A stretch of 10,753 bases of DNA from the IMG/VR virus record IMGVR_UViG_2695420699_000008, positions 1 to 10,753 of that record; one strand, 5' to 3'. Position 1 is the first letter of the stretch. Each line of letters starts with the position of its first letter. The position numbers were made by a program. The stretch comes from a virus. Taxonomy: Duplodnaviria > Heunggongvirae > Uroviricota > Caudoviricetes. Of the stretch, positions 3,001-6,000 are shown piece by piece.

Positions 3001-6000
3001 GCCAATTAAATTCTGGTCCTTACAATATCAACCTGAAGATTCTTATCTTGTGCTGATTGATAAATCACAAACCTTTTACTACCTGCATTGAAAGAAGTAG
3101 ACAAAACCAGACAATTATCATAGCGAGCAAGAACATAATACCAACCATCATTATAATTAATCATTTCATATTCTTTCTTAAACTGCGGTTTGTAATATCC
3201 TGTCAGAAATGAAAAAAGCCAGAAATATGCCACAAAAGCAATCATCACAATCTCAAAAAAATGTTTTTTTATAAATGGCTTATCATAGAAGCATGATACC
3301 GATAAAAATCGCCCATAAGATCTTATCGAAATTGTAACCGCCAGCGCAATCGCTGCTGACAGTAGCAAAAGAGGTACCTGAATCTTCTGTCTCAATATAG
3401 AAAACTCAATAATTGCCGGCACAAACAATAATTCCACAGCAAAATAAAGGCGAAATACATTTAGCTCTTGCATAGAATGTTTTCTTTTCACTGCGAAAAA
3501 GAATACAACACCAATACCCCAACCGATAAGAAATATAGCAATGACGATAACTGCAAAAAATAAACTTCTGGCAACATCATCAACACCTGCACCTACAATC
3601 CACCATGGGAAGCCGTAGTAAAAAGAAGTACCCCATCCATAGAAATAAGCACTCCCCCATCCAAGGCATCCCATGTAGGCAATAAAAAGTGAAGAACTCC
3701 TGAGCAGCGCACCATCCTTCATAACCACCCCAATACAAGATGATAACATTGGCTTACAACTCATAACAAAAGCAATTCAATGCCGTCAAGAGGTTACAGG
3801 CTAAAAAAACTCTATTACATTGCAGTCAGCATGTTTACTACACAAATACAATTCAGAGCATAAAAACTACTCGGCGGCAGGTTATTGAGACTCATCAATG
3901 ACATGTAAAAAACGCCCATTATTGGTGTCAAGTTTCCCCAAAGTTATTCAAAAAGTCAATATTATGCCGTTAATATGTTGCCATCCGTGGCAATCATGGC
4001 GCTAACGTGTGATCGCATTCAAAATGTTGTCTGCGATTGACTCTTCCTTGTGGCATTGCACAACCAGAGCGTCATACAGCGGCTTAACAGTGCGTGACCA
4101 GGTGGGTTGGGTAAGGTTTGGGATTAGCATCGTCACAGCGCGATATGCGGCGCTTGCTGGCATTCTTGAATAACCGACGCCTTTACATCTTCCGCACTCT
4201 TTCTCAGCAACTATCCCCCACTGCTCTGTTTTGGCTATATCAACCGCACGGCCTGTACCGTGGCAATCTCTGCATCTTGCGCCCGGCGTAGCGGCACTAC
4301 GGCAATAATCCGCATAAGCGAATGTTGCGAGCACTTGCAGTACCTTTGCCTTAGTATTTCCTTCGAGCTTTGCCACACCACGGTATTTCCCCGATACCTT
4401 GTGTGCAAATTGCATCAGATAGTTGATAGCCTTTTGTTTGTCGTTCTGGCTGAGTTCATGCTTACCGCAGAATGCAGCCATTCCGAATCCGGCTTGTGAT
4501 TGCGCCATCCCCATAGCAGCCATCACATCAGTACCGGAAAGAGAGTCAGAAGCCGTAGCCCGTGGTGAGTCGCTCATCATCGGGCTTTTTGGCGAATGAA
4601 ATTTAGCTACGCTTTCGAGTCTCATGCGCCTTCTCCCTGTACCTGAATCAATGTGAGATTTCCGCAGAACACTGCGCCGGTATCGATATACATCTGGTTG
4701 GCAAATTTGAGTGGTTTCACTGCTTGCGTATGACCAAAGATGAACGTGTCCGCGCCTTTGATTTCTTTCACGATCCCGTCTTGTGAGTTGCTGATTCGTT
4801 CGCGGTTCCAGATTACCTGCTGATGATCAACTGGCTTTCCAAACTCGTATTTATCACAAGGATAATCGGCGTGGCAGATGACATATTTTTTTCCTTTACT
4901 CACCAGTTCGATGATTAACGGAAGTTCATCTGCTTTATGGGCAAGAGCTTTAGCCAGAATTTCTTTGTCGTAATCGAGATTAAAGAACCAGCCACCGCCA
5001 TTAAGCAGCCAGTGATTGACGTTTCCACGCTCTGATAAGCCATCAATCATCATTTGCTCATGGTTTCCACGTACAGCTCTGAACCAGGGGAATGTGATTA
5101 ATTCCAGGCATTCTACGTTCTCTGTACCGCGATCAACCAAATCGCCCACCGAGATAAGCAGGTCTTTTTTGGTGTCGAATCCTATCGTCTCCAGTTTTTT
5201 CATCAGGTTCGTGTAGCATCCGTGCAGATCGCCAACTACCCAAATATTTCGGTATTTGCTGCCATCAATTCTTTCGTAGATATTCATGCAACCTCACTTC
5301 TGCTGTTTCGCAGTTTTTTAAGTTTCTGTTGATACTCCGCCTTGATGGCCCTGCACTCTTCGACAGTCCAGCGATAGCGGTTATGGTTTGATTCGATTTC
5401 CTCTACTGCTTCCTGCCCGATGCGGCTAATCAGTTCGACGCGATACGGAACGAGATTTCCGCTTTTGTGCTGGTTGCACACCACGCATTGCTTGTGAATA
5501 TTGCGTTCATCAAATCGGAGTTGAGGTGCCGCAGCAGTTGTCCGGTAATGTCCGGCATCCCACTGAGCAGACGTGAGCGTTCCGCACGAGATACATGGTA
5601 AGTCGCGGTCTCTTTCTCTGATGAAGGCGTTTACGGCTTGTTGGGCTTGTTTAATCCAGTAACTGCGGGGCTTTAAGGCGAGTTTTCGAATCTTAAGTTT
5701 ATCTTTCTGTTTCTGCTCCTCTCGTCGTCGTTTCTTCTCTGCTGCTTTTTCCGCTTTTTCGCGTTCTTTACTTCGTCGTTCGAGTGCTATCTTGGTTTCA
5801 CAAATCTCATTACACCAATATTGATTTTGATATTTTGGTATAAACCATTCATTGCAACATTTACATTTCCTTCGATAGATTCGCATAAGTGCTCCTTTCG
5901 TTGCCGGAAAAATCACCGTAATACTTATCTCGGGCTTCTTCAGCAACTAGTACCGCTAACTCCAGATCATCAAAGCATCCGAAGTGTTTACTCTTGCCAT

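What the first reader, a model, noticed from the sequence alone, without database searches (positions are those of the whole stretch)
3006..3764. AT-rich polytopic membrane protein at the Q-to-holin cargo hotspot
In lambda, Q/pR' is followed almost directly by the lysis genes. Here a 252-aa multi-helix membrane protein with AT-rich codons is inserted between the lambda-like pR' and the phage 21-type lysis cassette, the position where Stx phages carry stx and other lambdoid prophages carry lysogenic-conversion or exclusion genes. It would be co-transcribed with the late genes under Q. I recognise no homolog, so a role in superinfection exclusion, abortive infection or envelope modification is speculation.
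Basis: partly seen in the sequence, partly recalled or inferred. Interest (0 to 1): 0.7.

Follow-up and report, generated by a model that had tools for sequence, protein, structure and literature searches.

The report
Phage-borne membrane gene, STM1630/TfpB family
The AT-rich gene between the late-gene activator Q and the lysis genes is real, but it belongs to an already catalogued membrane-protein family of unknown function (STM1630/TfpB) that is also found in classical phage 434, on Shigella and ETEC virulence plasmids and in the Salmonella chromosome.

Summary
The ORF exists at 3006-3764 on the minus strand. The real coding sequence is most likely 238 aa (3006-3722, starting at Met15). It is AT-rich (36.5% GC against about 50% in the flanks), under purifying selection (dN/dS 0.09-0.16), and predicted to have five membrane helices and a small C-terminal beta domain.

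The protein is 100% identical to phage 434 gene CPT_434_68. RefSeq names it "STM1630 family protein", and it matches PHROG 1521 and Pfam PF27470 (TfpB). Near-identical copies are in 683 of 5,426 complete E. coli genomes.

More distant relatives (46-68% identity) sit alone, with no conserved partner gene. They are found at cargo sites behind three different Q types, on Shigella pINV, beside the LT toxin genes of ETEC, beside LpxR/PmrD, and between steB and sseJ in Salmonella. No fold or defence-system match was found.

My best reading is a self-promoted cargo gene ("moron") expressed in the lysogen. In this lambda-Q arrangement the terminator that precedes the gene in phage 434 has decayed, so transcription from pR' probably also reads into it. 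It probably acts on the envelope as a host-colonisation factor. Superinfection exclusion is the main rival. It is already catalogued, its function is unknown, and interest is modest.

The parts
3006..3722 (-). Coding sequence of the STM1630/TfpB-family inner-membrane protein (238 aa). It has a conserved aromatic/Gly N-terminal motif, five predicted membrane helices and a C-terminal beta domain.
   Evidence: ORF. PHROG 1521 match, E = 2e-154. 100% identical to phage 434 CPT_434_68. RefSeq WP_001299184.1 'STM1630 family protein' lies on identical DNA. PF27470 is recorded on all homologs. Start supported by alignments A1 and A2. dN/dS 0.09-0.16. AlphaFold model with pLDDT 76.
3723..3764 (-). In-frame 14-codon upstream extension of the maximal ORF; probably not translated.
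   Evidence: No homolog carries it except a few with unrelated extensions. There is no Shine-Dalgarno sequence before the ATG at 3764. That ATG lies inside the candidate -10 hexamer.
3725..3731 (-). Shine-Dalgarno-like GGGGTGG, 2 nt upstream of the Met15 ATG.
   Evidence: Read directly from the sequence. Purine-rich GAGG/GGGA/GGTG motifs occur at the same position in homologs from other contexts.
3760..3789 (-). Candidate own promoter: -35 TTGACG (3789-3784), 18-nt spacer, extended -10 TGtTATGAG (3768-3760).
   Evidence: CTTGAC(G/T)-N17/18-TGnTA is conserved in position in six E. coli-type contexts whose spacers and flanks differ: window, L012, L100, L104, L004 and, as the TGTAATGT variant, L096. 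The scan tool also finds an overlapping TTGTTA-18-TGtTATCAT site at 3769-3740. Function is not shown.
3918..3959 (-). Lambda-like late promoter pR' with the Q-binding region: -35 TTGACT (3959-3954), -10 GAAACT (3936-3931), predicted +1 near 3923, and a -10-like pause element AATAAT.
   Evidence: Alignment to lambda 44499-44819. Homology to lambda and the HK/mEp phages ends at about 3915-3927.
3862..3882 (-). Decayed remnant of the intrinsic terminator that precedes the gene in phage 434.
   Evidence: Phage 434 has CCCGCTgccgAGTGGG followed by T8, folding at -12.1 kcal/mol (z = -4.7). In the window version that hairpin does not form. The state is linked to Q type in the 78 IMG/VR loci where the Q side is present. 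The decayed string is in 43 of 47 lambda-Q loci and in no 434-like locus; the intact string is in 25 of 31 434-like loci and in no lambda-Q locus.
2762..2920 (-). DUF3927 small membrane protein (52 aa, 'TciB-like'). It travels with this allele of the gene but is not a family-wide partner.
   Evidence: Pfam PF13064, E = 3e-14. PHROG 1470. Found next to every IMG/VR copy whose downstream flank is present, but not detected next to homologs of 68% identity or less.
2557..2575 (-). First strong intrinsic terminator on the late strand downstream of pR' (GGCTGCGCatgGCGCGGCC followed by T8).
   Evidence: (-16.1 kcal/mol in context).
2178..2206 (-). Second terminator, about 40 nt upstream of the holin start.
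4002..4625 (-). Lambda-type antiterminator Q.
   Evidence: About 96% DNA identity to lambda Q. Annotated as antitermination protein.
1925..2140 (-). Class II (S21-type) pinholin, the first gene of the lysis cassette. The SAR endolysin (1428-1925) and Rz/Rz1 (964-1431) follow.
   Evidence: Annotation of identical or near-identical DNA in L003 and phage 434.

Best explanation
The gene is a stand-alone cargo gene ('moron') of a lambdoid prophage. It encodes a 238-aa inner-membrane protein of the catalogued but uncharacterised STM1630/TfpB family.

Shown here: family membership, purifying selection, foreign base composition, and mobility as a solo gene between prophage cargo sites, virulence plasmids and chromosomes.

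Inferred topology: N-terminus inside and five membrane helices. This places both the invariant aromatic motif (AY-YGWG...YYGFPWW, at the outer end of helix 1 and the loop to helix 2) and the C-terminal five-stranded beta domain in the periplasm. No catalytic-type polar residue is conserved across the wide family. The protein is therefore more likely to bind an envelope component or a partner protein than to be an enzyme.

Inferred expression: in the lysogen it is transcribed from its own conserved sigma-70-type promoter. In this lambda-Q arrangement it is probably also transcribed from the constitutive pR'. The terminator that precedes the gene in phage 434 has decayed here, and the first strong terminators (2575-2557 and 2206-2178) lie after the gene and its DUF3927 neighbour but before the holin. 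After induction, Q would read through these terminators and raise expression together with the lysis genes.

Inferred role: a lysogenic-conversion factor that changes an envelope property useful during colonisation of an animal host, not a lysis function.
For: Family membership:
- PHROG 1521.
- 103 homologs, all carrying PF27470, which is named TfpB.
- RefSeq name 'STM1630 family protein'.
- 46% identity over the full length to the Salmonella protein next to sseJ.

A real, selected gene of foreign composition.

A solo gene in many cargo and virulence contexts:
- directly behind lambda-type Q or Q82-type Q and behind a PF06323-type Q;
- between a DUF1133-type Q and the holin, in the slot where Stx phages carry stx, next to LpxR, PmrD and NanS-p;
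- beside eltAB on ETEC plasmids;
- on Shigella pINV, 106 plasmids;
- on a Klebsiella element that also carries an STb-like gene;
- beside iroBC and bor;
- at the end of a prophage tail-fibre region;
- in the C. rodentium chromosome next to LpxR;
- in H. ducreyi between housekeeping genes.

Narrow distribution. Only 72 clusters at 50% identity were found among 1.84 billion representative proteins. Almost all named members come from animal-associated Enterobacterales, Pasteurellaceae and Neisseria.

Published data on STM1630 (PMC6785131 S1 text; PMC2639726). It is bound by H-NS and has its own transcription start. It is expressed in SPI-2-inducing medium and in macrophages and is co-regulated with virulence genes. 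Mutants are attenuated in calves and chickens. The deletion in strain 4/74 replicates more in macrophages. Its promoter is inactivated in invasive ST313 and the gene is absent from Typhi.

Expression architecture: conserved promoter, terminator decay linked to Q type, and downstream terminators. In L104 the gene also lies between Q and the first terminator.

Topology and structure.
Against: - No biochemical or phenotypic test of this E. coli/phage allele exists.
- The virulence link is by association only, and AT-rich cargo genes tend to cluster anyway.
- In Salmonella, the macrophage phenotype is an increase in replication on deletion, and there is no growth defect.
- The motility phenotype from a screen (PMC4219756) was re-examined in PMC4534456, and STM1630 is not among the mutants that paper reports as having a confirmed motility change.
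- The structure models are of moderate confidence (pLDDT 63 and 76), and topology rests on the positive-inside rule (10 against about 6-7 Lys/Arg).
- Promoter activity is not shown, and the -10 hexamer lacks the final T.
- A weak AU-rich hairpin followed by T7 at about 3852-3802 could terminate part of the pR' transcripts.
- The pR' -10 here (GAAACT) is weaker than lambda's.
- In the phage 434 arrangement an intact terminator precedes the gene, so read-in from pR' is not a general feature of the family.
Confidence: 0.45

Rival explanations
1. It is a superinfection-exclusion or abortive-infection protein. A prophage inner-membrane protein, perhaps acting with the DUF3927 peptide, would block DNA entry of incoming phages or kill the cell on infection.
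For: It is a prophage membrane protein at a cargo hotspot and is probably expressed in the lysogen. It travels with a small membrane protein whose family is annotated 'TciB-like inhibition of cell division or resistance to colicin'. The family is narrow, patchy and highly mobile, as defence genes often are. An identical allele is kept in many mosaic prophages.
Against: There is no match to any PADLOC model. The only PHROG matches are families of unknown function. The DUF3927 partner is absent next to all homologs of 68% identity or less. Members are fixed in non-phage contexts: S. enterica including subspecies arizonae and diarizonae, H. ducreyi between housekeeping genes, and Shigella and ETEC virulence plasmids. 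The Salmonella member is induced inside host cells and linked to animal colonisation.
Confidence: 0.25
2. It is a late-expressed accessory of lysis or virion release, for example a membrane protein that tunes holin timing or prepares the envelope. It would matter only after Q activation.
For: It lies on the late strand between pR' and the holin. In the phage 434 arrangement an intact terminator precedes it, so there Q read-through is the obvious route of expression from pR'.
Against: Two terminators separate it from the holin. Phages with the same holin-proximal segment lack it (phage Evi), and lambda and the HK/mEp phages with the same Q lack it. Most family contexts have no lysis genes at all. 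No holin, antiholin or spanin family matches.
Confidence: 0.07
3. It is a decaying or functionless hitch-hiker ORF in AT-rich junk DNA.
For: Many truncated or frameshifted copies exist in the databases. The function is unknown.
Against: dN/dS is 0.09-0.16 across 46-94% identical homologs. Motifs are invariant across orders. An intact, 100% identical copy is present in hundreds of genomes.
Confidence: 0.03

Closest known systems
Salmonella Typhimurium STM1630 (SL1344_1560), the name-giving member of RefSeq's 'STM1630 family protein'
   Same: 238 aa and 46% identical over the full length. It has the same N-terminal aromatic motif, the same helix pattern and the same C-terminal beta domain. It is AT-rich at 36.7% GC and is a solo gene among horizontally acquired virulence genes, between steB and sseJ.
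   Different: It is chromosomal, is not in a prophage and has no DUF3927 neighbour. Its upstream region is unrelated. Its regulation (H-NS binding, SPI-2-inducing conditions) has been shown only for Salmonella.
Phage 434 gene CPT_434_68 ('putative membrane protein') and phage 2B8 gp58
   Same: 100% and 98% identical proteins in the same Q-to-holin slot with the same DUF3927 neighbour.
   Different: Phage 434 uses a Q82-type antiterminator, has an intact terminator before the gene, and carries a NanS-p (SASA) esterase between the module and the holin. In the window there is a lambda-type Q, the terminator is decayed and there is no esterase. The phage 434 annotators chose Met6 as the start.
Classical lambdoid morons expressed in the lysogen (lambda bor and lom; stx in Stx phages)
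   Same: It is an extra gene of foreign composition between genes that are adjacent in relatives. It has a candidate own promoter and downstream terminators, and relatives sit exactly where stx sits.
   Different: There is no sequence relationship and the function is unknown. Here the gene may also be fed by the constitutive pR' because the upstream terminator is decayed, which is not how I recall bor, lom or stx being described (from memory).
Phage superinfection-exclusion membrane proteins (P22 SieA/SieB, T4 Imm, HK97 gp15)
   Same: A prophage-encoded inner-membrane protein expressed from a cargo position. This is a resemblance of kind only.
   Different: No sequence, profile or fold similarity was found. 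The family is also common outside phages.

Membership tests
STM1630 / TfpB family (Pfam PF27470, PHROG 1521, RefSeq 'STM1630 family protein') | Significant full-length match to the family models. | tested here: met
   PHROG 1521 at E = 2e-154 over residues 31-252. PF27470 is precomputed on the 100% identical protein P0001 and on all 103 homologs, and is named TfpB. RefSeq WP_001299184.1 on identical DNA is named 'STM1630 family protein'. The local Pfam and NCBIfam copies lack these newer models.
STM1630 / TfpB family (Pfam PF27470, PHROG 1521, RefSeq 'STM1630 family protein') | Full-length collinear homology to STM1630 itself. | tested here: met
   46% identity over 238 of 238 residues to P0075, which is encoded next to sseJ in Salmonella. 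The paper's tables give STM1630 as a 717-bp gene for a putative membrane protein next to sseJ.
STM1630 / TfpB family (Pfam PF27470, PHROG 1521, RefSeq 'STM1630 family protein') | Shared architecture: N-terminal AY-YGWG / YYGxPW motif, about five membrane helices, and a C-terminal YY-L..Y....IL beta domain. | tested here: met
   Alignments A1, A3 and A7. Hydropathy. AlphaFold secondary structure.
STM1630 / TfpB family (Pfam PF27470, PHROG 1521, RefSeq 'STM1630 family protein') | Relationship to the Moraxella tfpB ORF, which I believe gave Pfam its name. | not tested
   The origin of the name is recalled from memory only. No Moraxella sequence was retrieved. Literature hits for 'TfpB' refer to unrelated things.
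Moron (extra cargo gene of a lambdoid phage) | Inserted between genes that are adjacent in related phages. | tested here: met
   Lambda and the HK/mEp phages share Q and pR' up to about 3915-3927 and then diverge. Phage Evi shares the holin-proximal 2100-2560 segment without the gene. The module is found in combination with two Q types and with or without NanS-p.
Moron (extra cargo gene of a lambdoid phage) | Base composition different from the surrounding phage genes. | tested here: met
   36.5% GC against 50-51% for Q and the endolysin.
Moron (extra cargo gene of a lambdoid phage) | Own promoter and terminator, with expression from the prophage. | tested here: inconclusive
   A promoter-like element is conserved in position in six contexts, and terminators lie downstream. 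Activity is not testable with these tools.
Known anti-phage defence / superinfection-exclusion systems | Match to a described defence or exclusion protein family. | tested here: not met
   PADLOC gave 0 families. All PHROG matches are of unknown function. BFVD and PDB fold searches gave no significant hit.
Known anti-phage defence / superinfection-exclusion systems | Protection of the host against phage infection. | not testable with these tools
   This needs plaque-efficiency assays with a cloned copy.
Holin / antiholin / spanin lysis proteins | Match to a lysis-protein family and obligatory linkage to a lysis cassette. | tested here: not met
   No Pfam or PHROG lysis family matches. The gene is separated from the holin by two terminators. 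Most homologs have no lysis genes nearby.

The most novel reading that the evidence does not exclude
STM1630/TfpB proteins may be an overlooked, widely disseminated host-colonisation factor of animal-associated Gram-negative bacteria. They would act from the periplasmic face of the inner membrane on envelope remodelling or its signalling. The repeated linkage to LpxR and PmrD, and the SPI-2/PhoP-type regulation of STM1630, hint at the lipid A / antimicrobial-peptide axis. Lambdoid prophages with lambda-type Q may have captured the gene inside the constitutive pR' leader by losing the upstream terminator. The '6S-like' transcript would then become a 1.3-kb mRNA that expresses the cargo in every lysogen while the lysis genes stay shut off behind the next terminator.
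Probability: 0.15. Interest if true: 0.6.

Novelty: already known. Interest (0 to 1): 0.3.

Why it matters
The gene itself is not new. Even so, a family of unknown function that is present in about one in eight complete E. coli genomes (often in two copies) is a reasonable target for a simple functional study. The same family is found in classical phage 434, on Shigella invasion plasmids, next to the LT toxin genes of ETEC, and between two SPI-2 effector genes in Salmonella. The terminator state linked to Q type also suggests a testable way for a prophage to express cargo from the late promoter without expressing lysis genes.

Tried and rejected
**Searches that gave nothing useful**
- The local Pfam-A and NCBIfam copies gave only noise (DUF4501 at E = 0.23; CrgA at E = 0.46), because they lack the newer family models.
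- PADLOC gave nothing.
- Rfam found nothing in the window.
- A profile search of PDB sequences gave only E = 0.15 noise.
- Foldseek against BFVD gave no hit at E <= 0.001.
- The AFDB Foldseek library was not available.

**Literature leads that went nowhere**
- A search for tciA/B/C led to phage P1 plasmids and Trypanosoma typing, not to this gene.
- 'TfpB' in papers refers to chemicals, nerve blocks, a pilus class or an Acinetobacter pilus motor.
- Searches for DUF3927, PF27470 and the WP accession found nothing relevant, and 'phage 434' with LpxR found nothing.

**Ideas considered and rejected**
- Lipoprotein: the Cys in 'YMGC' is not conserved.
- Enzyme: no polar residue is invariant across the wide family.
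- Obligate two-gene system with DUF3927: the partner is missing next to divergent homologs.
- The 132-aa plus-strand ORF at 2283-2681 and the 64-aa ORF at 2511-2705: neither matches any family, and the latter spans a terminator.
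Full report
**1. The observation**

The window carries the right arm of a lambdoid prophage, read on the minus strand. In order it contains the nin genes, NinI, a lambda-type Q (4002-4625), the ORF in question, a 52-aa DUF3927 gene (2762-2920), a class II pinholin (1925-2140), a SAR endolysin (1428-1925), Rz/Rz1 and a Rha-family gene.

The ORF at 3006-3764 (252 aa) is real. The 238-aa coding sequence has 36.5% GC and 31% GC3, against 50.8% for Q and 50.4% for the endolysin. 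Pairwise dN/dS against homologs of 46-94% identity is 0.09-0.16, so it is a selected coding gene.

Alignment with lambda shows a lambda-like pR'. Its parts are:
- -35 TTGACT at 3959-3954;
- a Q-binding region with three mismatches to lambda;
- -10 GAAACT at 3936-3931;
- predicted +1 near 3923;
- a -10-like pause element AATAAT.

Homology to lambda stops about 20 nt into the transcript. The body of lambda's 6S RNA and tR' are absent.

**2. The start codon**

The likely start is Met15, not the first ATG.
- All full-length homologs begin at the Met that is residue 15 of the 252-aa ORF (alignments A1 and A2).
- RefSeq nt on identical DNA.
- GGGGTGG lies 2 nt upstream of that ATG.
- The ATG at 3764 has no Shine-Dalgarno sequence and falls inside the -10 hexamer of the candidate promoter.

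The coding sequence is therefore most likely 3006-3722 (238 aa). The phage 434 annotators chose Met6, and the phage 2B8 annotation matches Met15.

**3. What it is**

- The protein is 100% identical to CPT_434_68 of classical phage 434 and 98% identical to gp58 of phage 2B8.
- It matches PHROG 1521, a family of unknown function, at E = 2e-154.
- All 103 database homologs carry the precomputed Pfam family PF27470, whose name is TfpB.
- Recent RefSeq annotation names the identical protein WP_001299184.1 "STM1630 family protein".
- Near-identical DNA is in 683 of 5,426 complete E. coli genomes, with a median of two places per genome, including O157:H7 and O55:H7 strains.

An exhaustive profile search of 1.84 billion representative proteins found only 72 clusters, many of them fragments. 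Named members come from the following groups:
- Enterobacterales: Escherichia, Shigella, Salmonella, Citrobacter, Cronobacter, Klebsiella, Enterobacter and Yersinia, plus one Mangrovibacter;
- Pasteurellaceae: Actinobacillus, Haemophilus ducreyi, Aggregatibacter, Glaesserella, Gallibacterium, Avibacterium and Pasteurella;
- Neisseria.

Every one is annotated as hypothetical.

**4. Anatomy of the protein**

Conservation is concentrated at the two ends.
- N-terminal block: SS..IAY.G.LGWGSAYFYGWG.S.YYGFPWW.V..G.D..ARSL.
- C-terminal block: G.YKPQ.KKEY......WYYVLARY...L.LS.S....F.

The middle helices vary freely. Across the wide family only A15, Y26 and Y195 are invariant, and A25, G31, G37 and G175 are nearly so. 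No charged or catalytic-type residue is universal.

Hydropathy gives four strongly hydrophobic segments (about 54-78, 90-110, 115-135 and 155-177) and a weaker aromatic/Gly-rich first helix at 10-31.

A first AlphaFold model built from close homologs was poor (pLDDT 62.6). Adding Pasteurellaceae and distant enterobacterial sequences raised it to pLDDT 76.1 and pTM 0.69. That model has helices at 3-36, 47-79, 84-111, 116-137 and 155-181, and a five-stranded beta domain at 184-235.

Lys and Arg residues cluster in the N-terminus and in loops 79-91 and 135-154 (10 residues). The other side has about 6-7. This favours N-terminus inside and C-terminus outside. Under that topology the conserved aromatic loop and the beta domain are both periplasmic. 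This is an inference.

No fold or sequence relationship to anything characterised was found.

**5. Genomic behaviour**

*The module in E. coli prophages.* In 80 IMG/VR prophage loci the identical gene, together with DUF3927 wherever the downstream flank is present, occurs in two upstream arrangements and two downstream arrangements.
- Upstream, it follows either a full lambda-type Q with a 283-bp gap, or the 434 arrangement: a lambda-Q fragment, LpxR, ylcG and a Q82-type Q.
- Downstream, the holin follows at +869 nt or, with a NanS-p esterase inserted, at about +2.8 kb.

*More distant homologs.* Those at 46-68% identity are solo genes without DUF3927. Their contexts are:
- immediately behind a third Q type (PF06323), followed by a terminator;
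- in the stx-equivalent slot of Stx-like prophages, next to LpxR, PmrD and NanS-p;
- beside eltAB (the LT toxin genes) on ETEC plasmids;
- on Shigella pINV, in 106 plasmids;
- on a Klebsiella element with two-partner-secretion genes and an STb-like gene;
- next to iroBC and bor;
- at the tail-fibre end of a Citrobacter freundii prophage;
- next to LpxR in the C. rodentium chromosome;
- between sseJ and an adh gene in Salmonella, that is STM1630;
- between a sigma-factor gene and mqo in H. ducreyi.

*Comparators that lack the gene.* Phage Evi has the holin-proximal segment 2100-2560 but no such gene. Lambda and the HK/mEp phages share Q and pR' but not the gene.

The gene therefore behaves as a self-contained cargo gene (moron).

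**6. Expression signals**

*Own promoter.* A -35 TTGAC(G/T), a 17-18 nt spacer and an extended -10 (TGnTA...) are conserved at the same distance from the start codon. They occur in six E. coli-type contexts whose spacers and flanks otherwise differ. In the window these elements are at 3789-3760. The Salmonella, Shigella, Citrobacter and Klebsiella genes have other upstream regions. For STM1630 a transcription start with its own -10 element has been mapped.

*The terminator upstream of the gene.* Phage 434 has a canonical terminator before the gene: CCCGCTgccgAGTGGG followed by T8, at -12.1 kcal/mol and z = -4.7. In the window and in phage 2B8 the homologous stretch, CCTGCCGCCGAGTAG followed by T5, no longer forms that hairpin.

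The state tracks the Q type in the 78 loci where the Q side is present.
- The decayed string is in 43 of 47 lambda-Q loci and in no 434-like locus.
- The intact string is in 25 of 31 434-like loci and in no lambda-Q locus.

*Terminators downstream.* A lenient scan finds nothing canonical between pR' and 2575. It finds only a weak AU-rich hairpin (-6.2 kcal/mol) before a T7 run near 3802-3808. The first strong terminators are at 2575-2557 and 2206-2178, after DUF3927 and before the holin.

*Inference.* In this arrangement, transcription from the constitutive pR' probably runs through the cargo in the lysogen and stops before the lysis genes. Q would then read through on induction. None of this is shown experimentally.

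**7. What is known about the family**

Only STM1630 has been examined.

According to the supplementary text of Canals et al. 2019 (PMC6785131):
- the gene is of unknown function and lies between steB and sseJ;
- it is absent from S. Typhi;
- it carries an H-NS binding site;
- it is expressed in SPI-2-inducing medium and in macrophages;
- mutants were attenuated in calf and chicken models (Morgan et al. 2004, as cited there);
- deletion has no growth cost in LB;
- the 4/74 deletion mutant replicates more in macrophages;
- two SNPs in the -10 element silence the gene in all ST313 strains tested.

Other papers add the following.
- STM1630 is on a list of genes co-regulated with SPI-2 by virulence regulators (PMC2639726).
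- It was scored as hypermotile in a deletion screen (PMC4219756).
- A follow-up study re-tested it, and STM1630 is not among the mutants that paper reports as having a confirmed motility change (PMC4534456).

**8. Interpretation**

The shown facts fit a lysogenic-conversion or cargo gene better than a lysis gene. Those facts are:
- it is a solo, mobile, AT-rich gene, and H-NS silencing has been shown for the Salmonella member;
- it has a narrow host range, almost entirely in animal-associated bacteria;
- it is repeatedly linked to toxin, effector and lipid A-remodelling cargo;
- in Salmonella it is expressed inside host cells and linked to colonisation, and it has been lost or silenced in invasive lineages.

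On balance they also fit better than a dedicated anti-phage function. I therefore commit, at about 45%, to the following reading. It is an inner-membrane protein with a periplasmic binding face. It is expressed in the lysogen and alters an envelope property relevant to gut or mucosal colonisation.

The alternatives are superinfection exclusion (about 25%), a late lysis accessory (about 7%) and a functionless hitch-hiker (about 3%). The remainder is unassigned.

**9. Novelty and score**

The gene, its family and its occurrence in phage 434 are already in public catalogues, so the finding is "already known" as an object, although its function is unknown.

Two things here may be worth following up. 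The first is the breadth of the association with virulence cargo. The second is the terminator decay linked to Q type, which would place the cargo in the constitutive pR' transcript. Interest: 0.3.

Noticed in passing
window 6996-8768 (+): A 590-aa, very AT-rich (about 31-36% GC) ORF on the opposite strand inside the nin region. It matches PHROG 9230 (unknown function). It has no Pfam, NCBIfam or PADLOC match. It is 99.3% identical in the Stx1 phages AU6Stx1 and SH2026Stx1. It is a second cargo gene of unknown function in this window.
   Followed up: partly
window 6621-6679: A perfect hexanucleotide microsatellite, (AAATAG) x 9.8. It lies about 320 bp upstream of the 590-aa ORF and inside a frameshifted small ORF. 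It could vary in length by slippage.
   Followed up: no
window 3862-3882; L001 (phage 434) about 4425-4450: The intrinsic terminator upstream of the membrane gene is intact in the Q82-type (434-like) arrangement and decayed in the lambda-Q arrangement. The link to Q type is near perfect across 78 prophage loci.
   Followed up: yes
L100/L101 (E. coli Stx-like prophages), L103 (C. rodentium), L001 (phage 434): The lipid A 3'-O-deacylase gene lpxR, and in one case pmrD, lies next to or near the family member in three different arrangements. This suggests a recurring cargo set related to lipid A remodelling.
   Followed up: partly
L004-L008 (ETEC plasmids), L112 (Shigella pWR501), L109 (Klebsiella): Homologs at 54-59% identity sit about 870 bp from eltAB on ETEC plasmids, on the Shigella invasion plasmid (106 plasmid records), and about 2.5 kb from an STb-like gene in Klebsiella.
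   Followed up: partly
window 5861-6508 (-): An HNH_3 plus AP2-domain endonuclease ORF sits between NinG and the AT-rich 590-aa ORF. RefSeq annotates a shorter 'HNH endonuclease' here.
   Followed up: no
window 2283-2681 (+) and 2511-2705 (-): Two ORFs annotated in some records have no family match. They are a 132-aa 'hypothetical protein' in RefSeq and a 62-aa 'putative membrane protein' in phage 434. The second spans the strong terminator at 2557-2575. Both are probably not genes.
   Followed up: partly
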